A DNA stretch of 56,207 nucleotides from an uncultured Muribaculaceae bacterium (GTDB lineage: Bacteria > Bacillota_I > Bacilli_A > RF39 > UBA660). Below, piece after piece: positions 3,406-55,330 of the stretch. The stretch spans positions 1 to 56,207 of the forward strand of contig CAZGGW010000001.1 of assembly GCA_964525365.1 (NCBI GenBank), in the 5' to 3' direction. The notes beneath the pieces are model-generated. The model was not told where the DNA came from. It saw nothing but the letters and a program-made list of their open reading frames with translations, and did no database searches. How positions within the stretch are numbered: the stretch's first letter is position 1; each line of letters opens with the position of its first letter. The position numbers were made by a program, and so were the translations under genes.

Positions 3406-3870
3406 ATGTTAAAAAATAAAAAAGGATTTACTTTGGTGGAATTGTTAGCAGTTATTGCAATACTTGCTATTATTATAGCATTTGCATTTCCGAAAATATT
3501 AGAACAATTTAACCAAGCTAAAACAGGAGCGTTTGTAACTCAAGCCCAAAGTATTTATAGAGGAGCAAGTGAAACATATATGACTGAGGAACTCACTGGA
3601 AATGGTGGAGGCACATATTATTATGATGGTACTGAAAGTAGCAGTACTCTTGCATTAGATGATTCAACTACTGTTAAATATTATATAGTTATGACTCCTG
3701 CTGGAATTGTTACAAGTTTCAAAATATATAATGAAAAATATGAAATTATTATTGAAGATAACGCTGGCGTTAAATTAAGTGACATTAAAGAATCTGAACT
3801 AAAATCAAATAATACAGGTGTAACATTTGTAAACCTTACTGTTGCAAAAATGGCCACAGATACGGATTAA
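3406..3870 (+). CDS. Type IV pilin / pseudopilin-like protein (prepilin-type N-terminal cleavage/methylation domain)
   Basis: The N-terminus MLKNKKGFTLVELLAVIAILAIIIAFAFP is the canonical prepilin leader: a Gly cleavage site, F at +1, E at +5 and a hydrophobic helix. The protein is 154 aa. Confidence 0.85.
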   Translation: MLKNKKGFTLVELLAVIAILAIIIAFAFPKILEQFNQAKTGAFVTQAQSIYRGASETYMTEELTGNGGGTYYYDGTESSSTLALDDSTTVKYYIVMTPAGIVTSFKIYNEKYEIIIEDNAGVKLSDIKESELKSNNTGVTFVNLTVAKMATDTD

Positions 3871-5176: not shown

Positions 5177-6280
5177 ATGAATGATAAGCTAACAAGTAAA
5201 TATTTTAAATATAAAGAAAAAAATTACAATAGTTTTATTAGTACAATTACAAGAATGCTTAAAGTAAAACCTTGTGAATTGTGGGAAAATAAGACTTCCT
5301 TTTCTATAACTATTAAGCCTATCGTTGAAGTGTATGTGGAAAGTTATTTATATGGAGCCGAGAAAGACTACAATAAAATAAACAAATATTTCAATTTGAG
5401 TATTCAAAATAATAGAATTATTAATAATATTTTGCTTTGTATTATTAATTATTTTGAAAATAATAATAAAATCGATTCAATTAATGGTAACAAAGATAAT
5501 ATTTTGTATGCTACGATAGTAATATATTTAGCAAATTCATTTGATAAATTAATAAAACCATACGAGAAATTTGATTACAATAATACTTTGAATAAAGTGA
5601 TTGAGATCTTTAAAAATATTAATATATTAATGATTTATGAAACAAAAAGAAAAGATGTAGAAAAAATCGTTTCAATTATAGAATTAAATTGTGAGAAAGA
5701 AAAACGATTTTTGAATTCATTGGAATGTAATATTTCTTATAATAAATATAGAAGCATTACCTCTGGAAACGCTATTTTTTATGTAAAATATATATATATT
5801 TTAAAAGAAATTGAAAAATATAAAGCAGAGGATGTAAAATATGTCTTTAAGAATTTACATCTCGAAGATGAGTTATTCATGAATTGTTATGAATTATTAA
5901 ACATTACGTTGTTAAAACAAACTGTAAGAGGGCTTTCATATCAATATGTGATTCCAATTACAAGTTCAATATATAATAAAAATTCAAATATGAAGAAAAT
6001 AAACAAAATATTTTGTTTAGACTTTTATAAAAAATCTATTATGTTTATAATAAATTATAAAGATTATATTGAAAATAGGAAACAGGTCGAAAATTTAGAG
6101 AACGATTATAAAATAATTATTAACTTAGAAAATGAGAATGAAATAGATCCAATTCTTTTAAAAGATAAATTGGTGTTTGGCGAGAAAGAGTTGTTAGAAA
6201 GATATAAATTAGAAAACACAATAGAGAAAAAAATGGGAATGTTATTAACAGAAAATGAGCTGTTAAATATAGGAGGATAA
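5177..6280 (+). CDS. Hypothetical 367-aa cytoplasmic protein, first gene of the McrB-like operon (gene A)
   Basis: Long uninterrupted ORF with an RBS. No TM segment and no motif I can assign. Its 3' end carries the GGAGG RBS for the next gene, whose ATG lies one spacer nucleotide after its stop codon. Confidence 0.7.
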   Translation: MNDKLTSKYFKYKEKNYNSFISTITRMLKVKPCELWENKTSFSITIKPIVEVYVESYLYGAEKDYNKINKYFNLSIQNNRIINNILLCIINYFENNNKIDSINGNKDNILYATIVIYLANSFDKLIKPYEKFDYNNTLNKVIEIFKNINILMIYETKRKDVEKIVSIIELNCEKEKRFLNSLECNISYNKYRSITSGNAIFYVKYIYILKEIEKYKAEDVKYVFKNLHLEDELFMNCYELLNITLLKQTVRGLSYQYVIPITSSIYNKNSNMKKINKIFCLDFYKKSIMFIINYKDYIENRKQVENLENDYKIIINLENENEIDPILLKDKLVFGEKELLERYKLENTIEKKMGMLLTENELLNIGG

Positions 6281-6281
6281 A

Positions 6282-7790
6282 ATGAGTATATATGGAGAAT
6301 TTTTTATAGATTTTATGAAACCTTTCTTTCAAGGATTCCTATCAATTTTTGAAGCATTATTTAAAGGATTGTTTGAAATGTTTAATATTCTTGGCTATGT
6401 TGATATAGTAAAAGAATATTATTCTCAAATGGGTGGCTCCGGTACGATAATAGTAATACTTTCATCAATCTGTTTAATAATTATTTTTGGTGTAATAATA
6501 CTTTTAATAGTACTTGGTATAAAAAGATTAGTAAAATATAGAAAAAATCTAACCAAGCAAGAAGCATTGGTTGATGAGATTGAAGATTTGAATGCTGACG
6601 TGTATAGACTAAAGGCAGAAAATGAAAAGTTTATGAATATGGCAGATCCTGAAAATGGTGAAGTTGAATATGATGAAAACGGGAATGTTATTAATAAACT
6701 TAAAGAAGGAGAAAGTCGTTTCTTTAAACTTACTGAAGTGGATAAACAAATGGAAAGTTATGTTCCACGTGCTTTTAATGAAACAATTGGATTAAATGAA
6801 TTCTGTATAGCATTTAAAAATTATGCTGCATCCAAGTTAAAACTATACTATGATGATAAAATAATTCGTTTATTTATTTCTGCTTTTGCTTCAAATAGAT
6901 TAATTATTTTACAAGGTATCTCTGGTACAGGTAAAACTTCGTTGGCTTATGCGTTTGGTAATTTAATACAGAATGAAGCCGCAATAGCTTCTGTTCAACC
7001 ATCATGGAGAGATAGTACCGAATTATTTGGATATTTTAATGAATTCACTAAAAGATTTAATGAAACAGAAGTATTAAGTAATATGTATGAAGCTACTTAC
7101 AGAGAAGATATATTTATTACATTACTTGATGAAATGAATATATCACGTGTTGAATATTATTTTGCTGAAATGCTATCAATTTTAGAGCTTCCTAGTAGAG
7201 AAGAGTGGGTAATAGAACTTGTACCTAATAGTTGGGTGAATGATCCAAAGAAAATAATCGGTGGTAAGTTACAAATACCAGCAAACATGTGGTATATTGG
7301 TACTATAAATAACGATGATTCAACATTTATGGTAACTGATAAAGTATATGATCGTGCTATGCCAATTGAAATTAATACAAAAACGGAAAAATTTGATGCA
7401 CCAGAAACAGAAGGTATAAGTATAAAAGCAGAATATTTTGAATCGCTATTTAAAAAAGCTCAGCAAGAACATCCTTTAAGTTCAGAATTATTAGATAAAT
7501 TAAATAAAATGGATGAATATGTAATAGGACATTTCAGATTGGCTTTTGGTAACAGAATTGTTAAACAAATGAAAGATTTTATCCCAGTATATGTTGCATG
7601 TGGTGGGGATGAATTGGAAGCATTTGATTATGTAGTGGCACACAAAATATTACGTAAATTTGATCAATTAAATATGTCTTATGTAAGAAATGAAATAGAT
7701 CCGTTTATAAAATATTTAAATGAATTATTTGGTGAAAATAAAATGTTAGAATGTTTAGAAGTATTAGGTAATCTTAAAAAAATGATATAG
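6282..7790 (+). CDS. Membrane-anchored McrB-clade AAA+ GTPase (gene B)
   Basis: Walker A GISGTGKTS (nt 6915-6941), Walker B LLDEMNISRVEYYFAEMLSILE (nt about 7123-7188) and the McrB-family NxxD signature INNDDS (NNDD at nt 7308-7319). VQPSWRDSTELFGYF parallels the McrB segment between the Walker motifs. The N-terminus has an amphipathic stretch, one TM helix (aa 54-80) and a coiled-coil-like segment (aa about 90-120) where a DNA-reader domain would normally sit. Confidence 0.8.
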   Translation: MSIYGEFFIDFMKPFFQGFLSIFEALFKGLFEMFNILGYVDIVKEYYSQMGGSGTIIVILSSICLIIIFGVIILLIVLGIKRLVKYRKNLTKQEALVDEIEDLNADVYRLKAENEKFMNMADPENGEVEYDENGNVINKLKEGESRFFKLTEVDKQMESYVPRAFNETIGLNEFCIAFKNYAASKLKLYYDDKIIRLFISAFASNRLIILQGISGTGKTSLAYAFGNLIQNEAAIASVQPSWRDSTELFGYFNEFTKRFNETEVLSNMYEATYREDIFITLLDEMNISRVEYYFAEMLSILELPSREEWVIELVPNSWVNDPKKIIGGKLQIPANMWYIGTINNDDSTFMVTDKVYDRAMPIEINTKTEKFDAPETEGISIKAEYFESLFKKAQQEHPLSSELLDKLNKMDEYVIGHFRLAFGNRIVKQMKDFIPVYVACGGDELEAFDYVVAHKILRKFDQLNMSYVRNEIDPFIKYLNELFGENKMLECLEVLGNLKKMI

Positions 7791-7803: not shown

Positions 7804-8886
7804 ATGGATAATAATTTAGTTGAACTCATTAATGGAATTAGTGAAATTGATGTAAAAACCTTTGTTAGTCAAACTAAAAGTGATTTTTTAGTTCGTACGT
7901 CTACTGAAAGCGTTAAATATGATTTTAGTTGGATTAATATGATTGAAGAATCATTACCATATATTGATAATATAATAAGAAATCCCAGACGTTTTATGGT
8001 ACCCGAAGAGGAAGTTGTAATAATTGAAAAGACAAAAAAAGTTACTAAAGATAGTATAAAACATTTGGCACAGCACACTTCATTAATTAGAGATGTTGAA
8101 CCAGATGGTACGGTTAAACCTTCTAAGTTATTGAATACTTATAAAGAAGAAACTATAGATTTATATGAAAACAGATTTATTTACTCGTTACTTAAAAATT
8201 TGTATGTTTTTATGTTAAATCAATCAAGTTTTTTACCGGTAGCCTCTTATAGCAGCAGGATTAAAAAGGTTCAGTATAGAGCCCAAACTAAAATAAAAAA
8301 AGAAAATATTCGTATGAATTTAGTTTTAGAAAGCACATACAAAGAAGAAAGTAATGAAGATATAAGTAAAATTCAGGAAAGAATAAAAAATATTAATCAA
8401 ATAGTGAGTGATTTTAATTCTAGCGCTTTTATGAAGAATTTGGTTAATATTTCTCCAGTTAAATCTCCAATTAGAAGAACAAATGTCATTTTAAAAGATC
8501 AAAATTTTAGAAAAGCACTTGAATTATGGGAATTTTTAGAAGAATATAATTTGAATGATCCAACTAAGAAAGAAAAAAGTGAAGTAGAAGATAGTAATTC
8601 ATTAATAAAAAACAAATACGATTTAACTTACTTTATTAACTATGATGCTTTAGAAAGAAAAATTGAAAATACAAATAAATCTCTAAGTGAAATGTACCTC
8701 ACAAAAATCATTGATGAAATGATAAAAAATAACACTAATGTTTCGGATATTAAAAAACTTATAACAAAGGAATTTAATAGTGCCGTTAAGAGAAAAGAAA
8801 AGTATAATAAAGAAATATGTGATTATTTTAAATTATTGAGGGAAGCTCAAGATAAGATGATATCTAAAGCAATTAAATTAATTTAG
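7804..8886 (+). CDS. McrC N-terminal / DUF2357-like protein without a recognisable nuclease domain (gene C)
   Basis: It sits immediately downstream of the McrB-like gene, in the canonical mcrB-mcrC order. IDLYENRFIYSLLKNL (ENRF at nt 8167-8178), the upstream LPYIDNIIRNPRRFMVPEEEVVIIEK, and later NVILKDQNFRKALELWEFL resemble the conserved blocks of DUF2357/McrC N-terminal regions. The protein is only 360 aa and ends in a K/E-rich helical tail. Confidence 0.55.
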   Translation: MDNNLVELINGISEIDVKTFVSQTKSDFLVRTSTESVKYDFSWINMIEESLPYIDNIIRNPRRFMVPEEEVVIIEKTKKVTKDSIKHLAQHTSLIRDVEPDGTVKPSKLLNTYKEETIDLYENRFIYSLLKNLYVFMLNQSSFLPVASYSSRIKKVQYRAQTKIKKENIRMNLVLESTYKEESNEDISKIQERIKNINQIVSDFNSSAFMKNLVNISPVKSPIRRTNVILKDQNFRKALELWEFLEEYNLNDPTKKEKSEVEDSNSLIKNKYDLTYFINYDALERKIENTNKSLSEMYLTKIIDEMIKNNTNVSDIKKLITKEFNSAVKRKEKYNKEICDYFKLLREAQDKMISKAIKLI

Positions 8887-8934: not shown

Positions 8935-10344
8935 ATGGATAAAGACAATGAGAATAAATCAAAACAAGCGAAAAAAGTTGAAACTAAAGATGACATTTCT
9001 AAAAAAATAGATGATATTGTTAATAAAAGAAAAAAAGAAAATGAAGAACAAGAAGATTTAGTTAAAAATTTTAAGCCTCAAATTGATAAAGAAAGATTGG
9101 ATTTAACAGAGTTTGATCAAAAAGAGGAACAAGAGCAATTCAATATAATCAAAGAAATTTTAACTAGAATGTATGGTGATAATTTAGAAGTTACTAATAC
9201 AATGATTTTCAAGTGTGTTAGATTAACTTGTAATAAGAAAGATATTACTACTTATTTACCATGTAATTTAATGGTTGATAAAAAGAAGAACGAATTAATA
9301 TTTCAGTTTATAAAAAGCAAAAAAATTAATCCAGTGATTTTTGTTCTTGCAGTTTTTGCTTTCTTAATTGCAACAGCCGCTAGTACATATTCTGCGACTA
9401 TTTATATGAAAAGAGCAAAATTAAATAAAGATATAGACGGAGACAAAATTCCTGATATTAATATAGATTTAAATTCTGATGATACAGCTGACATTAACAT
9501 TGATATAAATGATGATAACAAGCCAGATGTAAATATAGACTATTATAGTAATTGGAGTTCTGTATTTAATATTGATACAACTGGTGATGGAAAAGCTGAC
9601 TCAAACTTAGTAACAGATGCAAGTACTGATGAATTATATAAAAACTGTAAATTGAATTGTGATATAGATGGAGACGGTTGGCCCGAAGTTAATTTAGATA
9701 CTGATGGTGATGGTGTAGCAAACTTTAATATTGATTTAGATAAAGATAAAATCCCAGACTTAAATATAGATTTGGATGGTGATATGAAATGTGACATTAT
9801 GTGCGACACTAATGATGATAACAAATGTGATTTGAATTGTATATATTCTGATAGTGGATACAAAGAAAATGGAAGTTCTAGTGAGACTGGTAATCCTAAT
9901 GCGGGTACGGAATCAGCATCTTTAAAAATTGTGTATAGTGAGAATAGCTTAGTAACAGCTGAAAATATATTTCCAACAGATCAAGAAGGAATAAGTACAG
10001 AAGTTCCGGATAAAATACTTACAGTAGAAAATAAAAGCACGATAAAGTTAAAATATAGTATAAAATTAATAGTTTATACAAATACATTTAATGTAAACGG
10101 ACATAATAATTTTCAGTATAAAATATCTTCTAGTAATGGTGGATATGAAACAGATTGGACCGCTGCGCCTACATCAACTACTGTAATAAAGTATGACATA
10201 ATAATAAAACCTAAAGTTATACAAAAATATACATTCTCACTAAGATTAAAAGGAACGGGAACAAATCAGAATTATGACCAAGGAAAAGAATTTAAGGCAA
10301 AAATAGAGGTTAATACTACAGATACGTTATCTGAAGTTCAGTAG
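8935..10344 (+). CDS. Single-pass membrane protein with Asp-rich Ca-binding-like repeats and a beta-rich C-terminal ectodomain (gene D)
   Basis: 469 aa. K/E-rich N-terminal region of about 130 aa with 3 Cys, then a TM helix at aa about 131-157 (INPVIFVLAVFAFLIATAASTYSATIY). Aa 166-301 carry DxDxDG/N..PD(I/V)N(I/L)D repeats. Aa about 320-469 are rich in alternating beta-like sequence. Confidence 0.75.
   Translation: MDKDNENKSKQAKKVETKDDISKKIDDIVNKRKKENEEQEDLVKNFKPQIDKERLDLTEFDQKEEQEQFNIIKEILTRMYGDNLEVTNTMIFKCVRLTCNKKDITTYLPCNLMVDKKKNELIFQFIKSKKINPVIFVLAVFAFLIATAASTYSATIYMKRAKLNKDIDGDKIPDINIDLNSDDTADINIDINDDNKPDVNIDYYSNWSSVFNIDTTGDGKADSNLVTDASTDELYKNCKLNCDIDGDGWPEVNLDTDGDGVANFNIDLDKDKIPDLNIDLDGDMKCDIMCDTNDDNKCDLNCIYSDSGYKENGSSSETGNPNAGTESASLKIVYSENSLVTAENIFPTDQEGISTEVPDKILTVENKSTIKLKYSIKLIVYTNTFNVNGHNNFQYKISSSNGGYETDWTAAPTSTTVIKYDIIIKPKVIQKYTFSLRLKGTGTNQNYDQGKEFKAKIEVNTTDTLSEVQ
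9430..9837 (+). repeat. Coding repeat: degenerate Asp-rich units (thrombospondin type-3-like / DxDxDG Ca-binding-like)
   Basis: DIDGDKIPDINIDLNSDDTADINIDINDDNKPDVNID ... CDIDGDGWPEVNLDTDGDGVANFNIDLDKDKIPDLNIDLDGDMKCDIMCDTNDDNKCDLNC. About 9-10 degenerate units are seen in the translation. Confidence 0.7.
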
Positions 10345-29869: not shown

Positions 29870-32134
29870 TTGAAATATTATCCGGATAGGGTTTCACAGT
29901 ATCTAGAAGACGCATGGAAGTTTGATTTTAAATTACTATCAAAATATTTTTTTGATAAGAAAAATACTAAGATGCTTGTGAAAATATTTGATGAACGTGG
30001 CAAATTACCATATAGATTGCGAGAAAGTTCGCAATTTTTAATTATGTTGCTAGAAACAGATCCAGAAAAAGCGTTGGGGTTCATTCAGCAAAATCATTTT
30101 TATTCAGATGCATATACTGAAGAAAGCGTAAGAAAACTATATGATAGTAAAGTAAAAAGGATTGATGAAAATGGCATAGAAAAAGAAGTAAGTATAATAT
30201 CTCTATTAGAGCAAATACCATATGGATTGCGAGAAAGTTCGCAAATTTTAACTATGTTATTAGAAACAAATCTAGAGAAATCACTGAAGTTCATTCAACA
30301 AGATCAGTTCAAAGTTGAAGTATACGAAAGTGATCAATTCAAAAGATGCTTATTGGATTGTGATGAAGAAATATTTTATTCAATATTAAAAACTAAATAC
30401 TTAATTTCAGTTTCTCCAAAATATTTTGGATTGTATGGCGAAGGTTTAGAAGAATTAATAGATGAACTGAAAAATATATCAGGGATGGCACGTACTCCAT
30501 CATTAGAATTCATAAAAAAGATGTTGTATCTTCAAGTAGCCTTAGAGTATGAAGAAGCACGTAAAAATACTTCCAAACGTTACTTACAAGGAAATGTGGG
30601 AGAAGAAGTAAAAGATACTCTTATGCTAAATGGAAATATTGATGTTGGAATAGAAAATCAGTTGACTTCTTATTTAATGGGAGTAACTTCAGGAGAGACT
30701 GTAAAAGGATTAATTAGAGAAAAAACTTTAAGTAAAGAAGATAAGATAGCAAGAATACTTAAAAAAAGTGGAATAACAAAAGTAAAGAGATTGGCAGTAT
30801 GGGAAGGCGAAAGAGACAGTATAATATATGAAGAAATAAGTGAACGATTATCAGAATTAAGATTGGATGATGAATCTGAAAGCAAAGAAATATTAACAAC
30901 TATTACAAAGACACTTGTAGAAATGAAGAAAAAAGCATTTGAAGCATATAAAAAAGATCCACAAGATAAAGAAGCAGGTCAAATAATAGATGAAATATGT
31001 GATATTGCATTAAATGCACAGCAAAATTCAGAAGTAGGTAACATATATATAAGATTATTAAAAGGTGTAAAGAGAGATTTTTTGGAATTAACACCAAAAG
31101 GCAAAGAAAAAATCCAAAGCAGGAAAAAAATAGAAGTATTTAATGCGACAATAGAAAAAAGAAGAGAAAAAGTAATAGAAGCCATAATGGGTGAATTCGA
31201 TATGGATCGTACCGAAGCGGAAAAAATATGCCAATTATATACAGAATGTAAAGAGCCAAAAGATTTTGAGAGGTATGAAGAACGAAAGGGAAACCCTAAA
31301 AAGAAAAAAATAATAAGTTTTAAAGCTGTTTTAGCAAGTAGATTGGTAACAGACTCAGAAATAGGAGAAATAAGCCAAAAAGATATATTAAAACTTGATC
31401 TAACAAGTGATAATTTTCAAGTACCAATGAGAAGACAAATTCATAGGTTCATATTAAGCATATTATCAAATACAGTTTTTGGAGAAAAGAGTGACGTAAT
31501 TGATATTACACGAAATAATTTGGGAGAAATAACTGATTCTAGAATAAATTCTAGAATGAGAAAACTATTAGAAAATGTAAAAAAATCCATGACAATAGAA
31601 GACAAAGTTAACAGTGAATCATTAATAGGTATAGAATCATTAATAGGCTTGACAGAAAGTAGTATATTTGATTCTAAGAGTATAGGATTGATTAGTGTTT
31701 TATACTTGCCAATAAATGAAAAACTCAAAAGATTAAATAAAAATGAAGAGGTATCATATACAATAAACAATTATTTGGAGTATGCACGTATAGGATTAAG
31801 GATGACTACACCGGATATGAGTAATAGTATTTTGGGATCATATAATTGTGAAATACTTTCAAAAAAATCTAATGTGCAAGAAAACCTAACTCATTATATA
31901 AAAAATATGGCAAATCGTAGTTATAGAAATATACCAACAGTAAAAGGAGAGTGTGAGGGTATATATTATGAAGCATATAGTGTAGATGATCCAGAGCAAT
32001 TAATAGCAGGGGCTAGAATTAGTGGCAGTTGCTTTAGAATAGGAAATGCTCAAAGTAATACAATAAATTTGGAATTACCAAAGTCATTTATTATTTTTTC
32101 TTCTAAAGGTTTTAAAGTTGGCTGTTTATTTTGA
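29870..32134 (+). pseudogene. Decayed large accessory ORF of unknown function, apparently frameshifted at the 5' end and truncated by an IS remnant at the 3' end
   Basis: No RBS before TTG 29870. The frame is already open from 29819. A 47-codon ORF (29703-29846, MEDKIYNLIGRIG...) in another frame ends just upstream. The last 25-30 codons (after ...SGSCFRIGNAQ, about 32055) are merely the antisense of the transposase fragment. The ORF contains an internal duplicated 33-aa module. Confidence 0.6.
30001..30310 (+). repeat. Two copies of an approximately 100-bp direct repeat inside the decayed ORF
   Basis: 30001-30100 (CAAATTACCATATAGATTGCGAGAAAGTTCGCAATTTTTAATTATGTTGCTAGAAACAGA...) against 30212-30310 (CAAATACCATATGGATTGCGAGAAAGTTCGCAAATTTTAACTATGTTATTAGAAACAAA...). 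Roughly 80% identity by eye. They encode LPYRLRESSQFLIMLLETDPEKALGFIQQNHF and IPYGLRESSQILTMLLETNLEKSLKFIQQDQF. Confidence 0.8.
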
Positions 32135-32874
32135 TTTCCTGGAAAAGTAGAAAAAGCAAGGGGAATACCATCACCATCAAGAAATAGCCCCATACCAACA
32201 ATTGGATTTGGTCTGTTTTCTTTACTTTTGCCATACTTTCTAAAATCATCATCATTCTCTATTTCAAAATAATAGTTAGTACAATCATAGAAAAGAACTT
32301 TATCATTTCTTTTTGCGTACTTTAAACTGTTTTTATAAACTTCTGACTGAATAAAATCTGTTTCTTTAGCAATAACTTCTAAAGCTCTATAAATATCATG
32401 AAGTTCAAAATTAGGTTGTTCAATAAAGTTTTTAGATAACTCTAATGTTTTTAATTTAGACGATGGATATATAATTCTGGAATAAATAAGTTTAGATAAA
32501 ACATCGTTTAGATCATATCTAAATTGATACTTATTTGTGATTTCATCACATATATTATTTAACCCTAAAGAATAATAAATGTCTTGCAAAAATAAGTAAC
32601 CTCCGTTAAATTTATATTTTTTACTATAATCTAATTGTTTCGTTTGCGACAATCTAATAATAATATCATTTTTATTTTCTCTCTCTTGCTTATTTAACAA
32701 CTCGACATACTTTTTAGCCCAGTCATAAGGATCAGACCCTTTAGATTTAATTGTTAATTCGTTTAAATTACCCAATTTTTCTATGACCTTTGAAGTTCTT
32801 TTACCATTTATTGTAACAGACTTAATAACATAAAAACAGGTTGCTCCTTTAGATTTATTAATATTTAATCTCAT
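32050..32874 (-). mobile_element. IS1634-family (IS4-like) transposase gene, N-terminal half only (truncated remnant)
   Basis: MRLNINKSKGATCFYVIKSVTINGKRTSKVIEKLGNLNEL and VLFYDCTNYYFEIE (first DDE Asp region) are typical of IS1634-type transposases. The ORF stops after 274 aa (...GNSKFIVLL*), where homologues continue with the second catalytic Asp. Full-length enzymes are roughly twice this size. Confidence 0.7.
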
Positions 32875-36436: not shown

Positions 36437-38662
36437 ATGATAGAACTTAAAAATGTTTCAAAATATTATTATAGTAAAGGTTTAGTTTCTTCTGGATTTA
36501 GTAAAATATCATTGAAATTTGATTTGGGTGAATTTGTTGCCATTACAGGTGAGTCTGGAAGCGGTAAATCTACCTTATTAAATGTCATTTCAGGACTTGA
36601 TTCTTATCAAGAAGGGGAAATGTATATAAATGGGGAAGAAACTTCACATTATACTGAAAAAGATTATGAAATCTATCGTAAAAAATATATTGGAAACATA
36701 TTTCAAAATTTTAATTTAGTTAATAGTTATACAGTTTATCAAAACGTAGAATTAGTTTTATTATTAAATGGTAAAAAGAGAAAAGACATAAAAACCAAAG
36801 TATTATCAATTATTAAGCAAGTAGATTTATATAAATATAGAAATACTTTGGTTTCTAAGTTATCTGGAGGTCAAAAACAGAGAGTAGCCATCGCACGAGC
36901 TTTAGCTCAAGATAGTCCAATCATATTAGCAGATGAACCTACTGGAAATTTAGATAAAAGATCAAGTGAAAGTATTTTAAAATTATTATATGAAATATCT
37001 AAAGAGAAATTAGTAATTGTTGTTACTCATAATTATGAACAAATTGAGTTATATGTTACAAGAAAAATAACAATGCATGATGGAAAAGTATTGGAAGATA
37101 AAAAGATAAAACCTAAAAAAGATATAGTAAAGAATTATGAAATGGCTTCTAGTGAAATAAGTTTATTAAATAAGATAAGATTAGGCGTTCGTAATGCTTT
37201 TAATATTTTACCTAAATTTTTATTAATTTTTGTTGTATATACTTTCGTTGTACTTGCGATATTTTTCACATTATCTACTTTTAAACAAAGCCAATATTAT
37301 GCCGATATATCTAGGTATAATATGTTTTTTAATGATACTAGTGATAAGAGGATAATTATTAAAAAAAATGATGGTTCATCATTTAATAATGATAATTATA
37401 ATTATATTAACACACTTTCAAATGTTGATTATGTTGTAAAAAATGATTTATTACTTGATAGTACTATTGGAATTTCTTCTGAATATATTTATTTTCATGG
37501 ATATGTTGATGATATAAGTAAGATTGATAGTGTTGATGTTGGGAGAATGCCTGAAAATGATAAAGAAATGGTAATTGAAGGAAGAAAGTCGGATTATTAT
37601 CTTTCTAATAATTTGGACGAAATTTTTGATATTACATTTTCACTAGATAACTCGCCTACTTATTTAAATAAAAATTATGATTTAAAGGTAGTAGGAATTA
37701 AATATAGTGAAGAAAAGAATAATTCTTATTATTATGGATATTCTAGATTTTATTTTTCAGAAAGTGTTTTAAAATATATAACATCTAATAATAATAAGCT
37801 ATATACTACTATAAAATATACGTTTAATAATGTTGAAGAATCTTCTTATTCTGGTTCTATTATGGGTGAAATATTGCCTAGTTCTAAAGTTCCAAAAGGA
37901 AAAGTAATAATCTCAGAAGATTATTCTTATAACTGTAAGGAATATAATTGTAAAAATTATTCTTTTACACTTGATGCAGAGAATTTATATTATAAAGAAA
38001 CATTAAATTTAAAAGTTTTATCAATGTATAATAAAAAGAATTTTAGTAGTTTAACAGGGTATAAATATAATGAATATAATGGTGCTATATTTATGAATGA
38101 AAATGAATATAATAATTTATTTGATAAAGAATATTATCAAAGTAGTGTGATCATAAAAGATGAAAGAAAGCACGAAGATACTATTAAATCTTTGGAAAGT
38201 CATGGATTTACTACTTTATATATGCCCGATGTACTTCAGTATGATTTACAAGAATTAATGAGTGTTTTAAAAATAGCGAAAGTTATATGTATTAGCGTAT
38301 TGGTTGTAGTCTTATTTTTCATATCATATTTTATTATCAAGTTGGTATTAAAATCTAGAAATATTTATTACTCTACATTAAGAATATTAGGTTCTTCTTT
38401 AAAATGTATTGAATCATTATTAAATATAGAATTGTTTACTATATCTCATTTATCATTTTTGATATTTACAATATTAATTATGTTAGTAAAAATAAATATC
38501 ATTAATATAGAATATATTAACAAATTATCAAGTTTTGTTGGAATTAATGACTATATATTTTTATATATTGTTTTAGTTATAATGACTTGGTTTATTGGAA
38601 AAAGATATTCTAGAAAACTATTTAAAGATACAGTAATGAACACTTATAAGGAAGAGGTATAA
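36437..38662 (+). CDS. ABC transporter, fused ATPase + FtsX-type permease (MacB architecture)
   Basis: GESGSGKSTLLNVISGLD, LSGGQKQRVAIARAL and ILADEPTGNLD, then TM1, an extracytoplasmic domain of about 330 aa, and three C-terminal TMs with an FtsX-like YSTLRILGSS. It starts 12 nt after the ileS stop. Confidence 0.85.
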   Translation: MIELKNVSKYYYSKGLVSSGFSKISLKFDLGEFVAITGESGSGKSTLLNVISGLDSYQEGEMYINGEETSHYTEKDYEIYRKKYIGNIFQNFNLVNSYTVYQNVELVLLLNGKKRKDIKTKVLSIIKQVDLYKYRNTLVSKLSGGQKQRVAIARALAQDSPIILADEPTGNLDKRSSESILKLLYEISKEKLVIVVTHNYEQIELYVTRKITMHDGKVLEDKKIKPKKDIVKNYEMASSEISLLNKIRLGVRNAFNILPKFLLIFVVYTFVVLAIFFTLSTFKQSQYYADISRYNMFFNDTSDKRIIIKKNDGSSFNNDNYNYINTLSNVDYVVKNDLLLDSTIGISSEYIYFHGYVDDISKIDSVDVGRMPENDKEMVIEGRKSDYYLSNNLDEIFDITFSLDNSPTYLNKNYDLKVVGIKYSEEKNNSYYYGYSRFYFSESVLKYITSNNNKLYTTIKYTFNNVEESSYSGSIMGEILPSSKVPKGKVIISEDYSYNCKEYNCKNYSFTLDAENLYYKETLNLKVLSMYNKKNFSSLTGYKYNEYNGAIFMNENEYNNLFDKEYYQSSVIIKDERKHEDTIKSLESHGFTTLYMPDVLQYDLQELMSVLKIAKVICISVLVVVLFFISYFIIKLVLKSRNIYYSTLRILGSSLKCIESLLNIELFTISHLSFLIFTILIMLVKINIINIEYINKLSSFVGINDYIFLYIVLVIMTWFIGKRYSRKLFKDTVMNTYKEEV

Positions 38663-38664
38663 AT

Positions 38665-41097
38665 ATGATAATATTAGAGCACGTAAATAAATATTTTAAT
38701 AAACATAAAAAAAATCAAATACATGTAATAAATGATACTTCAATAAAATTAGAAAATACTGGACTCGTTGCATTTCTAGGCTCTTCTGGAAGCGGTAAAA
38801 CAACATTATTAAATGCTATAGGTGGTTTGGATAAAATAAATAAAGGTAAAATAATCATTAATGGTAAAACTATAACTAAAAAGTCAACGTATAAGGTTGA
38901 TAAAATAAGAAATTTCAATATTGGATATATTTTTCAAGATTATAATTTATTGGATCAATTAACTGTTTTTGATAATGTTGCATTAGCTTTAAAAATAGTT
39001 GGTATTAAAGACTCGAATGAAATTAAAAAAAGAGTAAATTATGTGTTGGAAAAGGTAGGAATGTATAGATATAGAAATAGATATGCCAATATGCTATCTG
39101 GTGGAGAAAGACAAAGAGTTGGTATAGCAAGAGCAATAGTAAAAGATCCAAACATTATAATTGCCGATGAACCCACCGGAAATTTAGATAGTAAAAATTC
39201 TATTGAAATAATGAATATAATAAAAGCAATTTCTAAAGATAGACTTATCATACTAGTAACTCATGAAAGAACATTAGCTGAATTTTATGCTTCTAGAATA
39301 ATAGAAATAGAAGATGGCAAAATCACTAGTGACATAGATAACAAACACACTGATGCTTTAGATTATAGAATGGATAATAAATTATATTTAAAAGATTACA
39401 AAGTTCATAAAATAATAAAGGATTCAGATGTTTGTGTAAATATATATGGAAATGAAAAAGATAAATTTAATATAAACGTTGTTTATCAAAATGGTAATAT
39501 ATATATACAAACTACATCTAATAATAAATTAGAAGTTATAGATGAAAATTCAAATATTGAATTTATAGATGATCATTATAAAAAGATTTCATCTTCTATT
39601 TATGAAAAATATGACTTTGATTTTGATAAAGTGATAAATAAATCATATAAAAAGAAATACACCTCCATATTTAATCCTATTAGTTTATTAATAAATGGTT
39701 TTAGAAAGGTAAGAGACTATTCATTTTTAAAAAAATTATTATTAATTGGTTTTTTTGCATCCGCGATGTTTATTACATATTCTTTTGCGTCAGTATTTGG
39801 AATATTTAATGTAGATGATAATTCTTTTGTAAATGTCAACAAAAATTATTTAAATGTTTTGATTCAAAAAGTAAAAGTATCGGATTATTTAGAATATGAA
39901 CAAGATAAAAATATAGAATATGTTATACCAGGAAATAGTATAGTCAATTTCAATATAAATTATAAAGATTATTATCAAACATCTACATATAATGATATTA
40001 TAACCGGATCATTAACTAGTATTAATACGCTAAGTGAAAACGATATAGTATATGGTGTATATCCGAGTAATGACAATGAGGTTGTACTAGATATTTTTAC
40101 TCTTAATAATTATATAAGTAAGGGATTTACTTTACAACTAGGCCTTAAATATCCAAAAGATTTTATAGGAAGAACCATTTCAATTAAATATGTTGGTGAT
40201 TTTAATATAGTGGGACTTACGGATTTATCTAGTCCATCTATCTATGTTGCTGATAATAAACTAATCAATATAGTTGCTAATAGTACACTTGTTGATGATG
40301 AAATTGAATATAGGACAGATATAATGGAAGAAGAAACAGTAGATTATATTGATTATACTTTGGTAAAAGATTTAATTAAATTAAAAAAAGGCTCATGGCC
40401 AAAAAAAGATTATGAAGTAATAGTAAATTATAATTATAAGGATGAATATAAATTAAATAAGACTATTAATGTTAAAGTGAACGGAAAGAAATTAAAAGTA
40501 GTGGGCTATTACACTAGTAAAAGCAGTATGAATGCTTATTTAGTTTCGAATAATACAATAAAATATAATTTGATTGAAAATACTCCTAATATGGTAATGT
40601 ATTCTAAAAACAAAGAAACTGTTATAAATAAATATCAAAATTTAAATATACAAGATTCATATACATATAGTAAGAATGAATATTTATCTAATAAAAAACA
40701 AAGTATGAATTCCAACTTAATATTTAGCGTAATTATATTACTAATATCTTTAATAGAAATTTATTTAATGATTCGTTCTTCGTTTTTATCAAGGATTAAA
40801 GAAATTGGTATTTATAGAGCAATTGGCGTTAAAAGAAAAGATATTAAAAAAATGTTTATTGGAGAAATCTTTGCCATCACTTCTATAGCTAGTATGTTGG
40901 GCGTAATTTTTATGACATATATAATTAAGCAATTATTAAATATTTCTTATTTACAGAGTAAATATATGATGAATTATAAAATATTAATATTAGTTATAAT
41001 ATTTATATATACATTTAATATATTTGTTGGTCTTATCCCAGTCAGAAGGGTATTAAGGCAAACGCCAGCACGTATCTTAAGTAGAAATGATATTTAA
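38665..41097 (+). CDS. ABC transporter, fused ATPase + FtsX-type permease (MacB architecture), paralogue of the upstream gene
   Basis: GSSGSGKTTLLNAIGGLD, LSGGERQRVGIARAI and IIADEPTGNLD, a large extracytoplasmic domain, and the FtsX motif EIGIYRAIGVKRKDIKKMF. It starts 2 nt after the upstream stop. Confidence 0.85.
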   Translation: MIILEHVNKYFNKHKKNQIHVINDTSIKLENTGLVAFLGSSGSGKTTLLNAIGGLDKINKGKIIINGKTITKKSTYKVDKIRNFNIGYIFQDYNLLDQLTVFDNVALALKIVGIKDSNEIKKRVNYVLEKVGMYRYRNRYANMLSGGERQRVGIARAIVKDPNIIIADEPTGNLDSKNSIEIMNIIKAISKDRLIILVTHERTLAEFYASRIIEIEDGKITSDIDNKHTDALDYRMDNKLYLKDYKVHKIIKDSDVCVNIYGNEKDKFNINVVYQNGNIYIQTTSNNKLEVIDENSNIEFIDDHYKKISSSIYEKYDFDFDKVINKSYKKKYTSIFNPISLLINGFRKVRDYSFLKKLLLIGFFASAMFITYSFASVFGIFNVDDNSFVNVNKNYLNVLIQKVKVSDYLEYEQDKNIEYVIPGNSIVNFNINYKDYYQTSTYNDIITGSLTSINTLSENDIVYGVYPSNDNEVVLDIFTLNNYISKGFTLQLGLKYPKDFIGRTISIKYVGDFNIVGLTDLSSPSIYVADNKLINIVANSTLVDDEIEYRTDIMEEETVDYIDYTLVKDLIKLKKGSWPKKDYEVIVNYNYKDEYKLNKTINVKVNGKKLKVVGYYTSKSSMNAYLVSNNTIKYNLIENTPNMVMYSKNKETVINKYQNLNIQDSYTYSKNEYLSNKKQSMNSNLIFSVIILLISLIEIYLMIRSSFLSRIKEIGIYRAIGVKRKDIKKMFIGEIFAITSIASMLGVIFMTYIIKQLLNISYLQSKYMMNYKILILVIIFIYTFNIFVGLIPVRRVLRQTPARILSRNDI

Positions 41098-50507: not shown

Positions 50508-51293
50508 TTGGATATGTTGGATAATATTGCGAACTTTATTTTATTTATAATATTACTATTTGTAGTAATTGTTATTATAGTAACTATATGTAGAGAAACT
50601 ATTATTTTTTTGTTACGATATTTTAAACATTTAAAAAACCAAACTACTGATTTTATAAACAATGCTTATACTAGTATTGAAGATTTGGTGACAGATCACG
50701 AATGGCTAGAAGATAAAAAAGAATTTAAGATAGATACATCGTCAAAGAAAGAAACAGAATTTTTTGTTGAATCCTTCAATAAAGTGAAAGGTGAGGAACT
50801 CGAAGAAAAAATAATTGAAATTTTAGAATCTATTAGTAATGATATATTCATAATAAAAAATTCGTTTGTTCCAAGAAATAATAATAAAACAAAAAAATAT
50901 GAAGTAGATATACTAGCAATTCATAAAAGTGGAGTTTATGTTATAGAATCAAAAAATTACGCTGGAATGTTGTATGGAACAGAAAAAAAATTGGTGTGGA
51001 AATGTTATTATACAGATGGAAGATTTTATACAACAACTAATCCAATAATTATGAATCAACGAAAAATAGATACCTTAGTAAAATTTTTTAACAATAAAAT
51101 ACCACGTAAACTATTTAAATCATATGTGGTGTTTGGTGATAAAGGAAAATTCAAAGTAAAAACAGTGAACAAAAGTACTAAAATGCTATTAGTAAATGAT
51201 TTAAAAAAGACAATAAAAAATGATATTAAAAATGAAGAACTAACTAATAAACAAATGAACTATATTTATGAAAAATTGACTGGTGAAAAATAA
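50508..51293 (+). CDS. NERD-domain protein with N-terminal TM anchor
   Basis: TM FILFIILLFVVIVIIVTI. NERD core YEVDILAIHKSGVYVIESKNYAG...VWK. The start is TTG 50508 or ATG 50514. Confidence 0.7.
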   Translation: MDMLDNIANFILFIILLFVVIVIIVTICRETIIFLLRYFKHLKNQTTDFINNAYTSIEDLVTDHEWLEDKKEFKIDTSSKKETEFFVESFNKVKGEELEEKIIEILESISNDIFIIKNSFVPRNNNKTKKYEVDILAIHKSGVYVIESKNYAGMLYGTEKKLVWKCYYTDGRFYTTTNPIIMNQRKIDTLVKFFNNKIPRKLFKSYVVFGDKGKFKVKTVNKSTKMLLVNDLKKTIKNDIKNEELTNKQMNYIYEKLTGEK

Positions 51294-52199: not shown

Positions 52200-52252
52200 G
52201 TTTAAGCTCAATTATAACTTCCGATAATATATATTATGTTGAGTTCTATACA

Positions 52253-53005: not shown

Positions 53006-53066
53006 TTAATTATATACATTTTTTTTAATTTTAAAACCACAATATTAATAGGTGGTGATTAAAGTT

Positions 53067-53189
53067 ATGGCACAATCAAAGGCAAGAAAGAATTCTAGAT
53101 GTAAAAATACTAACAATTGTACAAGTTCTTCAAGAAGTAGAAGCAAAAGTAGAAATACTAATACCAAAAACTCTAGAAGCCGTAAATAA
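53067..53189 (+). CDS. Putative 40-aa Arg/Ser/Asn-rich basic peptide
   Basis: Missing from the track: MAQSKARKNSRCKNTNNCTSSSRSRSKSRNTNTKNSRSRK. GGTGGTGA RBS 7 nt upstream. A strong hairpin follows at 53194-53220. Confidence 0.35.
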   Translation: MAQSKARKNSRCKNTNNCTSSSRSRSKSRNTNTKNSRSRK

Positions 53190-53193
53190 TATT

Positions 53194-53220
53194 AAAAGAT
53201 ATGGTTATTCCATATCTTTT
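53194..53220. terminator. Hairpin at the convergent ends of the small basic ORF and deoB
   Basis: Perfect 11-bp stem AAAAGATATGG / CCATATCTTTT with loop TTATT. The deoB stop codon lies in the loop. Confidence 0.5.
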
Positions 53221-55264: not shown

Positions 55265-55330
55265 AGTTAAATTCTATCATATTTGTGGAAAAAAGAGTAT
55301 ATTTTTGTTAAAATGTATATAGAGGTTTAT

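What the first reader, a model, noticed from the sequence alone, without database searches (positions are those of the whole stretch)
6282..7790. Gene B: McrB-family GTPase whose N-terminal DNA-reader is replaced by a TM helix and a coiled coil
The translation shows GISGTGKTS (Walker A), VQPSWRDSTELFGYF, LLDEMNISRVEYYFAEMLSILE (Walker B region) and IGTINNDDSTFMVTDKVYDRAM. These align block for block with McrB (GPPGxGKT, hpsysYedF, DEiNRan..kvfGEl..llE, MNTADRS..vDyALrRRF). The NxxD motif (NNDD) specifies GTP in the McrB clade. The RRRF-like sensor or arginine block is replaced by DRAM. Residues 1-120 comprise an amphipathic segment, one strongly hydrophobic helix (TIIVILSSICLIIIFGVIILLIVLGI), a KR-rich stop-transfer sequence, and a heptad-like segment (EALVDEIEDLNADVYRLKAENEKF). 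Membrane tethering of an McrB hexamer is unusual and argues against free scanning of DNA.
Basis: partly seen in the sequence, partly recalled or inferred. Interest (0 to 1): 0.75.

Follow-up and report, generated by a model that had tools for sequence, protein, structure and literature searches.

The report
Membrane-anchored McrB-like motor without a nuclease
Gene B encodes a McrB-type molecular motor that is anchored in the cell membrane and sits in a four-gene cassette with no DNA-cutting enzyme, so it probably acts at the cell surface and not as a restriction enzyme; this kind of motor was named in 2024 but has never been studied.

Summary
Window 6282-7790 (+) is a 502-aa ORF carrying every quoted motif. 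It has one very hydrophobic helix (aa 54-80), a basic stop-transfer stretch and about four heptads (aa 93-121) ahead of an AAA+ core.

With sequence or profile searches, E. coli McrB is the only solved protein the core matches significantly. The next gene, C, carries the McrC N-terminal domain DUF2357.

Three corrections:
- Across relatives the conserved loop is N-x-D-[D/E]. This is the "NxD" branch of Bell et al. 2024.
- Published structures show this loop does not set GTP specificity.
- Membrane anchoring is common in this branch. A McrB fused to a transmembrane helix plus coiled coil was already named CoCoPALM, though never characterised.

New here: the window carries a conserved A-B-C-D cassette, found in about 45 of the 80 genomes sampled.
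- C has no detectable nuclease.
- A is hyper-divergent.
- D is a single-pass membrane protein whose extracellular C-terminal domain is related, by transitive evidence only, to TasA/camelysin fibre proteins.
- No SipW signal peptidase lies in the 56 kb, whereas CoCoPALM loci in Clostridia have one.

Verdict: a new variant of a known but unstudied kind. An envelope or fibre-related role is more likely than restriction. Interest 0.6.

The parts
5177..6280 (+). Gene A, 367 aa. A cytosolic protein with no detectable family, always directly upstream of B. It is hyper-divergent.
   Evidence: ORF. Its stop lies 1 nt before the B start. It is present upstream of B in about 45 related loci. Identity among orthologs is 15-28% with no invariant column. 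There are no consistent Pfam, NCBIfam, PADLOC or PDB hits.
6282..7790 (+). Gene B, 502 aa. A membrane-anchored McrB-like AAA+ NTPase of the NxD clade, CoCoPALM type.
   Evidence: PADLOC PDC-M26A matches at E 1.7e-39.
6285..6422 (+). B aa 2-47: two amphipathic, Phe-rich helices. In some relatives the equivalent segment is a true first transmembrane helix.
   Evidence: Hydrophobic moment 0.44-0.55 and KD19 below 1.4. AlphaFold2 helices 2-34 and 36-47. F8, P14, N35 and Y39 are invariant.
6441..6521 (+). B aa 54-80: transmembrane helix, followed by the basic KRLVKYRKNLTK stretch.
   Evidence: KD19 peak 3.35. Net charge +5 after the helix versus -3 before it. Hydrophobicity is conserved in all homologs.
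6543..6644 (+). B aa 88-121: short leucine-zipper-like coiled coil, continuous with the transmembrane helix (FtsB/DivIC-like arrangement).
   Evidence: Heptad register with Asn114 at an 'a' position. Single AlphaFold2 helix 52-121. Pfam DivIC is the top hit for the window's own fragments but below threshold (E 0.004-0.017, 15-17 bits against a cut-off of 28.9). Weak geminin coiled-coil hits.
6723..7376 (+). B aa 148-365: AAA+ core. Walker A G212-T219 (nt 6915-6938). Walker B D283/E284 (nt 7128-7133). N-x-D-D loop N343-D346 (nt 7308-7319). Single invariant Arg R358 (nt 7353-7355).
   Evidence: HMMER alignment to E. coli McrB 6hz4, 6ut6 and 7vsr. Invariant columns. Motif statistics.
7428..7784 (+). 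B aa 383-501: all-helical C-terminal lid and extension.
   Evidence: AlphaFold2 helices 383-501 with pLDDT mostly above 90.
7804..8886 (+). Gene C, 360 aa. A McrC-like partner with a DUF2357 finger-type N-terminal region (aa 24-139, nt 7873-8220) and a C-terminal long helix (aa 313-359, nt 8740-8880). No nuclease domain.
   Evidence: Pfam DUF2357 at E 9.1e-10, 38.6 bits against a cut-off of 23.3. All 120 homologs are about 361-370 aa and carry only DUF2357. The AlphaFold2 model has long beta-hairpins plus helices and no alpha-beta-beta-beta-alpha-beta nuclease core. No PDB fold or sequence hit.
8935..10344 (+). Gene D, 469 aa. Contains a cytoplasmic N-domain, one transmembrane helix (aa 128-156, nt 9316-9402), an extracellular Asp/Cys-rich DxDxDG-type repeat region (aa ~164-300, nt 9424-9834) and a C-terminal beta-rich domain (aa 327-461, nt 9913-10317). 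The C-terminal domain is related to TasA/camelysin-like secreted proteins.
   Evidence: Transmembrane helix. Architecture conserved in 47 D-family ORFs, with about 23% Asp after the transmembrane helix. The C-terminal domain matches signal-peptide-bearing paralogs at E 1.4e-11 and 1.3e-8, and HMM E values reach 1e-32. Those paralogs hit Pfam Peptidase_M73: L047 at E 8.3e-8 and L043 at 5.6e-5, both above the cut-off. The window's D itself has no direct M73 hit.

Best explanation
Gene B is the NTPase motor of a membrane-anchored McrBC-derived module that lacks a nuclease. It belongs to the 'CoCoPALM' kind (NxD clade of McrB-like AAA+ proteins).

Shown:
- The AAA+ core is McrB-type.
- It is preceded by an amphipathic helix, one transmembrane helix and a coiled coil of about four heptads.
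- It is always followed by a DUF2357 (McrC N-domain) protein that has no nuclease domain.
- In this lineage the pair is flanked by a hyper-variable cytosolic protein A and by D. D is a single-pass membrane protein with extracellular calcium-type Asp-rich repeats and a C-terminal domain related to TasA/camelysin.

Inferred:
- B forms a hexameric ring held under the membrane by its transmembrane helix and zipper stalk.
- The finger of C plugs the ring and stimulates NTP hydrolysis through the conserved N-x-D-D loop, as McrC does in McrBC.
- The mechanical output is delivered to the envelope and not to DNA, most likely to D and to TasA-like surface or fibre proteins. In relatives from Clostridia those proteins and SipW signal peptidases are encoded in the same operon.
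- Nucleotide preference (GTP or ATP) cannot be read from the sequence.
For: McrB identity:
- Sequence and profile searches of the PDB match only McrB significantly.
- Walker A, Walker B, N343, D345/D346, N286 and D353 are invariant.
- The adjacent gene C carries DUF2357.
- B-C adjacency holds in 81 of 85 loci, counting the window itself; most of the loci without a detected C have B close to a contig end.

NxD clade: N-x-D is invariant in 138 of 138 representatives, followed by D or E in 134. This matches the description by Bell et al..

Membrane anchor and coiled coil. The same architecture appears in relatives from Clostridia at 50-55% identity.

No nuclease:
- C is 360 aa with only DUF2357, and no PD-(D/E)xK fold or hit.
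- A has no invariant residue.
- The one long C homolog read in detail, from a Clostridia locus (L054), is a DUF2357-like N-domain plus about 370 aa of K/E-rich coiled coil.

Link to the envelope and to fibres:
- Relatives have the layout SipW - B - C - several TasA-like proteins - SipW.
- Some A-B-C-D loci carry a SipW fusion, TasA-like genes and DUF5305 next to the cassette.
- The C-terminal domain of D is homologous to secreted M73/TasA-like paralogs encoded near about 12 of 45 cassettes.
Against: - No experiment exists for any member of this family.
- The window has no SipW or free TasA-like gene anywhere in its 56 kb. The fibre link is therefore indirect, resting on D only.
- The D to TasA relationship is transitive. 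D alone gives no Pfam M73 hit. hhalign against the Clostridia TasA-like set and against the L001 197-aa proteins is not significant.
- FtsB/DivIC homology of the N-terminus is below threshold.
- Only one Arg remains of the McrB sensor II/arginine-finger pair, and S347 replaces Ec R337. Catalytic competence is therefore assumed, not shown.
- The fold search of B does not separate McrB from MCM, dynein, Lon or MoxR.
- Variable chromosomal context and the fast evolution of A fit a conflict system equally well.
Confidence: 0.6

Rival explanations
1. The cassette is an anti-phage or anti-plasmid conflict system. In this reading a membrane-anchored McrBC-like sensor and motor detects invasion at the envelope. 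A would act as a fast-evolving specificity subunit, analogous to the separate R1 DNA-binding subunit of LlaI and BsuMI. The system would respond through a membrane effector (D or the helices of B), giving abortive infection or exclusion.
For: - The module descends from McrBC.
- B matches the PADLOC defence-candidate model PDC-M26A at E 1.7e-39.
- The cassette sits in unrelated chromosomal contexts in different species. In L085 and L086 it lies next to VirB4/VirD4-like conjugation genes.
- A diverges to 15-28% identity while B stays at 60-68%, a pattern typical of arms-race components.
- Three-gene McrBC systems with a separate recognition subunit exist (preprint 10.64898/2026.08.31.748284).
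Against: - No nuclease, pore-forming, NADase or other recognised effector domain was found in A, B, C or D.
- A, C and D have no PADLOC hit.
- B is unusually conserved and constant in length across more than 100 clusters.
- D has a large, structured, conserved extracellular region, which is unlike typical abortive-infection effectors.
- Relatives are embedded in SipW/TasA-like operons and not in defence islands.
- The A profile gives no relevant PDB match, only designed proteins and one weak unrelated hit; no R1-type subunit appears among the hits.
Confidence: 0.25
2. The cassette is a classical type IV (McrBC) restriction enzyme. In this reading B scans DNA and a partner protein cleaves modified DNA.
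For: McrB-type core and an adjacent McrC-type N-domain.
Against: - There is no DNA-binding N-domain. The N-terminus is a membrane anchor.
- C lacks the PD-(D/E)xK domain.
- No other nuclease is present in the cassette.
Confidence: 0.03
3. B is a divisome or envelope-biogenesis factor. In this reading the FtsB/DivIC-like transmembrane helix and zipper recruit an AAA+ ring to the septum.
For: - DivIC is the best Pfam match for the window's own fragments containing the transmembrane helix and coiled coil.
- The window and L087 place the cassette among housekeeping, cell-wall or sporulation genes.
Against: - The DivIC hit is below the cut-off (15-17 bits against 28.9).
- Neighbouring genes are not conserved between species.
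- One metagenome-assembled genome carries two copies (L053 and L057).
- The conserved partners are C, A and D, not divisome genes.
Confidence: 0.06
4. B is a generic AAA_5 (MoxR or dynein-like) chaperone ATPase and not a McrB relative.
For: - The Pfam AAA_5 hit is weak (E 0.02).
- Foldseek ranks MCM, dynein, Lon, RavA and NorQ alongside McrB.
Against: - Sequence and profile searches of the PDB return no MoxR or dynein protein; McrB is the only significant match.
- There is no VWA partner. The partner is DUF2357.
- The N-x-D-[D/E] consensus loop is a McrB-family signature.
Confidence: 0.03

Closest known systems
[quoted passage not shown]
   Same: - The McrB-like GTPase belongs to the NxD branch.
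- Its N-terminus is an FtsB-like transmembrane helix plus coiled coil.
- A DUF2357 McrC homolog with a coiled-coil tail lies adjacent.
- B is 50-55% identical over its full length to proteins from Clostridia flanked by SipW signal peptidases and several TasA-like genes.
   Different: - The window has no signal peptidase or free TasA-like gene in 56 kb.
- Its cassette instead adds the hyper-variable protein A and the membrane protein D.
- Its C is short (360 aa, against 700-800 aa with very long coiled coils).
- The paper only names CoCoPALM and defers analysis to a later publication, which I could not find.
E. coli and Thermococcus McrBC type IV restriction complexes (PDB 6hz4, 6ut6, 7vsr; Nirwan 2019; Niu 2020)
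   Same: - AAA+ core with Walker A and Walker B, a consensus-loop Asn/Asp, N286 = Ec N282 and D353 = Ec D343.
- A partner with a finger-type N-domain.
- A likely arrangement of a hexameric ring plus one plug, with hydrolysis stimulated by the partner.
   Different: - No DNA-binding domain and no PD-(D/E)xK nuclease.
- Membrane-anchored.
- R337 is replaced by Ser, and only one Arg of the R348/R349 pair is kept.
- Sequence identity is only about 16-18%.
CoCoNuT systems (CnuB/CnuC; Bell et al. 2024) and the PADLOC candidate PDC-M26
   Same: - The same NxD clade.
- Coiled coils fused to the GTPase.
- The PDC-M26A model matches B at E 1.7e-39.
- Representatives of about 750 aa without a transmembrane helix are among the closest 150 relatives.
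   Different: CoCoNuTs are cytosolic, have long coiled coils, carry nucleases (tandem nucleases or HEPN) and are predicted to target RNA. Here there is a transmembrane helix, a short zipper and no nuclease.
TapA-SipW-TasA (Bacillus subtilis) and SipW-BsaA-BsaB-BsaC (Clostridium perfringens) fibre operons
   Same: - Relatives of the cassette sit in operons with archaeal-type SipW peptidases (TIGR02228, 79-88 bits) and TasA/camelysin-like proteins.
- The C-terminal domain of D is related to such proteins.
- BsaA fibres are anchored to the membrane (PMC11580942).
   Different: The known TasA and BsaA systems have no dedicated NTPase. D has an internal transmembrane anchor and a cytoplasmic domain in place of a cleavable signal peptide.

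Membership tests
McrB-like AAA+ NTPases | Walker A GxxGxGK[T/S] and Walker B D[D/E] | tested here: met
   GISGTGKT at aa 212-219 and D283/E284. Both are invariant in 67 homologs and align to Ec D279/E280.
McrB-like AAA+ NTPases | McrB consensus loop (Asn ... Asp) in place of sensor I | tested here: met
   N343-N-D-D346 aligns to Ec N333-T-A-D336. N-x-D is invariant in 138 of 138 representatives.
McrB-like AAA+ NTPases | Trans-acting sensor II/arginine-finger pair (Ec R348/R349, Tg R425/R426) | tested here: inconclusive
   Only R358 is present, within the invariant DRAM motif. The neighbouring position is Ala. Which of the two roles it fills cannot be decided from sequence.
McrB-like AAA+ NTPases | Closer to McrB than to other AAA+ clades | tested here: met
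   McrB is the only significant hit in phmmer and hmmsearch against the PDB (E 5e-6 and 9e-8). Foldseek alone does not discriminate. No formal phylogeny was built.
McrB-like AAA+ NTPases | Adjacent McrC-type partner (DUF2357 finger domain) | tested here: met
   Gene C hits DUF2357 at E 9.1e-10, above the gathering score. The adjacency is conserved in 81 of 85 loci, counting the window.
McrB-like AAA+ NTPases | GTP-preferring hydrolysis stimulated by the partner | not testable with these tools
   This needs biochemistry. The literature shows that the loop does not determine specificity.
CoCoPALM (Bell et al. 2024) | NxD variant of the signature loop, usually followed by D or E | tested here: met
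   NNDD in 120 of 120 close homologs. Among representatives the loop is NxDD in 103, NxDE in 31, NxDQ in 3 and NxDG in 1.
CoCoPALM (Bell et al. 2024) | GTPase fused to an FtsB-like transmembrane helix plus coiled coil | tested here: inconclusive
   The transmembrane helix and the coiled coil of about four heptads are clearly present. Homology to FtsB/DivIC is only sub-threshold (E 0.004-0.017).
CoCoPALM (Bell et al. 2024) | Association with signal-peptidase-family (pilus-assembly) genes | tested here: not met
   No SipW-like ORF lies in the 56-kb window (phmmer at 1e-4). The feature is met in relatives: L001-4, L006, L010, L043 and most loci from L042 to L082.
CoCoPALM (Bell et al. 2024) | Coiled coil also on the McrC homolog | tested here: met
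   C has a predicted 47-residue C-terminal helix at aa 313-359. In L054, the one long homolog read in detail, about 370 aa of K/E-rich coiled coil follow the N-domain.
Canonical McrBC type IV restriction system | PD-(D/E)xK nuclease domain in McrC | tested here: not met
   C has no nuclease Pfam hit, no PDB sequence or fold hit, and a mostly helical predicted C-terminal half.
Canonical McrBC type IV restriction system | N-terminal DNA or modified-base reader on McrB | tested here: not met
   aa 1-147 consist of amphipathic helices, a transmembrane helix, a coiled coil and an acidic linker.
MoxR / AAA_5 chaperones | Pfam AAA_5 above threshold and a VWA-domain partner | tested here: not met
   AAA_5 scores E 0.02, 15.3 bits against a cut-off of 22. 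No VWA protein is present in the cassette.
TasA/camelysin (Pfam Peptidase_M73), for gene D | Match to the M73 profile | tested here: inconclusive
   D alone gives no hit. Its C-terminal domain matches secreted paralogs at E 1e-11 to 1e-32. Two of those pass the M73 gathering score and three are sub-threshold.

The most novel reading that the evidence does not exclude
A-B-C-D may be a previously unrecognised envelope machine of Gram-positive bacteria. In this reading a McrBC-derived NTPase ring is clamped under the membrane by FtsB-like stalks. The nuclease-less McrC 'shaft' acts as its rotor or activator. The ring anchors, extrudes or remodels a TasA-like surface structure whose membrane-embedded base is protein D. 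This would be the first NTP-driven assembly or anchoring motor for TasA-class (donor-strand-exchange) fibres, and a case of a restriction motor re-used for cell-surface work.
Probability: 0.3. Interest if true: 0.8.

Novelty: new variant of a known kind. Interest (0 to 1): 0.6.

Why it matters
McrBC is the textbook GTP-driven restriction motor. This gene belongs to a very large and completely unstudied branch of that family.

- The GTDB scan found at least 578 matching loci; the 80 retained came from about 79 different assemblies, mostly gut Bacilli and Clostridia.
- The branch includes 728 clusters (at 50% identity) with E below 1e-30.

In this branch the motor has lost both DNA reader and nuclease and has gained a membrane anchor. 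If the link to SipW/TasA-type surface proteins is functional, it would show how a defence motor was re-used for envelope work. It would also identify an energy source for a class of Gram-positive fibres thought to assemble without one. If it is a defence system instead, it would be a McrBC derivative with a non-nuclease, membrane-level output. Either outcome can be tested with a soluble B construct plus C.

Tried and rejected
- Foldseek of the B model against the PDB. Hits spread over MCM, dynein, Lon, RavA, NorQ and McrB at similar E values, so it cannot place the clade.
- Foldseek and PDB profile search for C. Nothing significant, not even McrC. The model is elongated (pTM 0.47), so absence of a hit is weak evidence. 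The no-nuclease call rests mainly on protein length, Pfam and predicted secondary structure.
- PDB and Pfam searches for A. Only compositional hits to designed proteins, which I rejected.
- Pfam on 30 D orthologs. Nothing consistent.
- hhalign of the D C-terminal domain against the L001 197-aa proteins and against 80 TasA-like proteins from Clostridia loci. Not significant (E 0.11-0.13). The D to TasA link therefore rests on the intermediate secreted paralogs.
- Flank synteny. None of 14 window neighbours (ParC, Nfo, EF-P, DnaB and others) recurs next to the cassette elsewhere, apart from Nfo several kb away in two loci. I therefore dropped the idea of a fixed housekeeping locus.
- Promoter and terminator scan. 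45 promoter-like sites against 47 expected by chance, so it is uninformative in 26% GC DNA.
- Literature searches for PDC-M26 and for CoCoPALM in the paper's supplements found nothing. The one paper mentioning both McrB and SipW (PMC11580942) mentions mcrB only in a strain genotype.
- Rejected idea: the type IV pilin-like gene at 3406-3870 is part of the system. It is not found near the cassette in any other locus.
Full report
**What is at the coordinates.** Window 6282-7790 (+) is a 502-aa ORF with an AGGAGG ribosome-binding site 8 nt upstream. It starts 1 nt after the stop of the upstream gene A (5177-6280). It is followed by gene C (7804-8886) and gene D (8935-10344), all on the same strand. 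The window is a 22-29% GC chromosome segment of a Firmicute that carries sporulation-type genes, including ParC, Nfo, EF-P, DnaB, YqfD and GerM.

**The N-terminal 120 residues.**
- A Kyte-Doolittle scan finds a single peak, 3.35 over aa 55-80, far above any transmembrane threshold.
- The peak is followed by KRLVKYRKNLTK (net +5). The 53-residue N-tail before it has net charge -3.
- aa 4-40 form a Phe-rich amphipathic helix with hydrophobic moment 0.44-0.55 and KD below 1.4.
- aa 93-121 show a clean heptad register: a = Q93, I100, V107, N114 and d = L96, L103, L110, F117. The nearly invariant Asn at an 'a' position is typical of short leucine zippers.
- AlphaFold2 (67-sequence alignment, pLDDT 79.8) predicts helices 2-34 and 36-47. 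It then predicts one uninterrupted helix 52-121 (transmembrane helix plus zipper), a disordered acidic linker 122-147, the AAA+ domain and a helical lid.
- For the window's own fragments containing the transmembrane helix and coiled coil, the best Pfam match is DivIC/FtsB. It is below the cut-off (E 0.004-0.017, 15-17 bits against 28.9).
- These features are conserved in all 120 closest clusters (58-68% identity, 498-504 aa) and in relatives from Clostridia at 50-55% identity.
- In some relatives the first helix is a true transmembrane segment: 17 of 142 representatives have two transmembrane helices. The topology of aa 1-47 (outside the cell, in the membrane plane, or a hairpin) therefore remains open.

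**The core is McrB-type.**
- phmmer of B, and hmmsearch with a 67-sequence profile, match only E. coli McrB significantly in the PDB (6hz4, 6ut6, 7vsr; E 5e-6 and 9e-8). No MoxR, dynein or other AAA+ protein appears; the remaining hits (E 0.09-0.9) are geminin coiled coils, a designed protein and UvrA.
- The alignment gives these equivalences: D283/E284 = Ec D279/E280, N286 = N282, N343 = N333, D346 = D336, D353 = D343, R358 = R348. S347 replaces R337 and A359 replaces R349.
- Pfam AAA_5 is only a weak sub-threshold hit.
- The Foldseek search of the model is not discriminating. MCM, dynein, Lon, RavA, NorQ and McrB all score around 1e-4 to 1e-6.
- Independent support comes from the neighbour. 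Gene C hits DUF2357, the McrC N-terminal finger domain, above the gathering score. B-C adjacency holds in 81 of 85 loci examined, counting the window.

1. The literal NxxD (NNDD) is there. Across 150 representatives at 50% identity, however, the invariant pattern is N-x-D (138 of 138), followed by D (103), E (31), Q (3) or G (1). Bell et al. 2024 describe exactly this 'NxD, usually followed by E or a second D' signature for a major McrB branch.
2. The loop does not specify GTP.
   - Niu et al. 2020 show that the Asn acts like sensor I and that the Asp contacts the inserted Arg/Lys of McrC.
   - They also show that guanine is read by elements upstream of the AAA+ fold.
   - A 2026 preprint shows that the McrB homologs LlaI.R2 and BsuMI.R2 hydrolyse ATP, GTP, ITP and XTP.
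   - Nucleotide preference here is therefore unknown.
3. Membrane anchoring is not unusual in this branch. Of 142 representative relatives with a complete N-terminus, 26 have one, 17 have two and 41 have three or more predicted transmembrane helices. Another 58, of about 750 aa, have none.
4. Bell et al. already named McrB GTPases fused to an FtsB-like transmembrane helix plus coiled coil 'CoCoPALM'. [quoted passage not shown] I found no such paper in the library.

**Genomic context in relatives.** The 80 best are gut-derived metagenome-assembled genomes of Bacilli ('Tenericutes') and Clostridia. Two layouts emerge.
- Loci with 50-56% identity, mostly Clostridia (Ruminococcus, Oscillospiraceae, Faecousia), typically read SipW - B - long C (about 640-900 aa) - several TasA-like proteins - SipW.
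  - In L054, the one long C read in detail, a DUF2357-like N-domain is followed by about 370 aa of K/E-rich coiled coil.
  - 1-6 TasA-like proteins with signal peptides lie within 10 kb.
  - The peptidases match archaeal-type signal peptidase I (TIGR02228, 79-88 bits).
  - This is the published CoCoPALM layout.
- The 45 or so loci with at least 56% identity, like the window, carry a strict A-B-C-D cassette.
  - In three lineages (L001-4 with L010, L006, L043) a SipW or SipW fusion lies next to it. TasA-like genes accompany it in all three, and DUF5305 in the first two.
  - In the rest, and in the window's whole 56 kb, no SipW is seen.
- The flanks of the cassette are not conserved between species. 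Contexts range from housekeeping genes (the window, L087) to VirB4/VirD4-like conjugation genes (L085, L086).

**The partners.**
- C is 360 aa, 43-50% identical among orthologs.
  - It has only DUF2357, no nuclease Pfam hit and no PDB sequence or fold hit.
  - Its AlphaFold2 model has long beta-hairpins, a poorly ordered but highly conserved segment at aa 55-125, helices, and a 47-residue C-terminal helix.
  - This resembles the published McrC finger, which has a beta-sheet stalk with a loop-helix-loop tip, without the PD-(D/E)xK domain.
- A is 367 aa, 15-28% identical among orthologs, with no invariant column and no family match. It is therefore not a hidden nuclease.
- D is 469 aa, 35-47% identical among orthologs.
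  - It has a cytoplasmic N-domain, one transmembrane helix and about 140 residues of Asp/Cys-rich DxDxDG-type repeats (about 23% Asp).
  - A Ser/Gly linker and a beta-rich C-terminal domain follow.
  - The C-terminal domain matches the N-terminal domain of signal-peptide-bearing proteins encoded near about 12 of the 45 cassettes. phmmer gives E 1.4e-11 and 1.3e-8, and HMM E values reach 1e-32.
  - Several of those proteins hit Pfam Peptidase_M73 (camelysin/TasA). L047 (E 8.3e-8) and L043 (E 5.6e-5) are above the cut-off, and three others are sub-threshold.
  - D alone gives no M73 hit, and direct hhalign to two other TasA-like sets is not significant. The assignment is therefore transitive and moderately confident.

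**Most likely mechanism.**
- Shown: a McrB-type NTPase with a membrane anchor and zipper stalk; an obligatory McrC-type partner lacking a nuclease; no DNA-binding or DNA-cleaving domain anywhere in the cassette; and a conserved membrane partner with a large extracellular region related to TasA-class proteins.
- Inferred, by analogy with the McrBC structures:
  - B forms a hexamer beneath the membrane.
  - The finger of C plugs the ring and stimulates hydrolysis through the N-x-D-D loop.
  - The highly conserved helix-2 insert of B (aa 239-256, low pLDDT) would grip the tip of C.
- Inferred, from genomic context: the work is done on envelope components, namely D here and SipW-processed TasA-like subunits in relatives, and not on DNA.
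- I give this reading 0.6. Identity as a CoCoPALM-type McrB is about 0.85, and the envelope or fibre role about 0.5.
- The main rival (0.25) is a conflict system with a membrane-level output. It is favoured by the McrBC ancestry, the PADLOC PDC-M26A match, the variable context and the hyper-variable A, which could be a specificity subunit like R1 of LlaI. It is weakened by the absence of any recognisable effector and by the TasA/SipW operon context of relatives.
- Classical restriction, a MoxR-type chaperone and a divisome role are each unlikely.

**Novelty and score.** Gene B is a new member of a kind that has been named (CoCoPALM) but never analysed or tested. The A-B-C-D cassette, without SipW, with a short nuclease-less C and with a membrane-embedded TasA-related D, is a variant not described in the one paper that names the kind. 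I rate it 'new variant of a known kind', interest 0.6. It stays substantial because the branch is very large, confined to poorly studied gut Firmicutes, and points to a non-restriction use of the McrBC motor.

Noticed in passing
window 8935-10344 (gene D): Single-pass membrane protein. It has about 140 residues of Asp/Cys-rich DxDxDG-type repeats (about 23% Asp, conserved Cys pairs) outside the cell, and a C-terminal domain related by transitive evidence to TasA/camelysin. In some species orthologs grow to 550-700 aa through insertions before the C-terminal domain.
   Followed up: partly
window 5177-6280 (gene A): A is always upstream of B and its stop lies 1 nt before the B start. Yet it is only 15-28% identical between species in which B is 60-68% identical. 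It has no invariant residue and no family hit. The pattern suggests a rapidly evolving adaptor or specificity subunit.
   Followed up: partly
window 3406-3870: A type IV pilin or pseudopilin-like gene (Pfam N_methyl, E 3.6e-9) lies 1.3 kb upstream of the cassette. It is not found near the cassette in any other locus, so it is probably unrelated.
   Followed up: yes
L001 4599-6347 with L002 4269-6347; L085 and L086 upstream of the cassette: In several species a DUF87/HerA-FtsK-like ATPase is followed by a roughly 690-aa secreted protein carrying the D-type (TasA-like) domain. In others, VirB4/VirD4-like genes and a 1538-aa FtsK/SpoIIIE-family protein lie next to the cassette. This may be a second NTPase-linked surface or transfer module.
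   Followed up: no
L053 and L057 (same Faecousia assembly, JAZMZW01): Two separate copies of the B gene occur in one metagenome-assembled genome, each next to or near a SipW-like gene.
   Followed up: no
window 50508-51293 and 32050-32874 (-): A NERD (nuclease-related domain) protein with an N-terminal transmembrane helix (E 4.2e-19). Separately, a 274-aa ORF on the minus strand that resembles a transposase fragment but has no Pfam hit. Both are far from the cassette.
   Followed up: partly
window 36437-41097 and 41168-42922: Two tandem large proteins that look like ABC ATPase-permease fusions (741 and 810 aa; judged from their sequences only, not scanned against Pfam) are followed by a BspA-type leucine-rich-repeat protein (LRR_5, E 3.4e-22).
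   Followed up: partly
window ~52000-56207: GC skew changes sign from about +0.29 to about -0.1 at around 52 kb, where the coding strand switches from + to -. The tyrosine recombinase-like (XerC/XerD-like) gene at 54359-55264 (-), identified from its sequence only, lies in this stretch.
   Followed up: no
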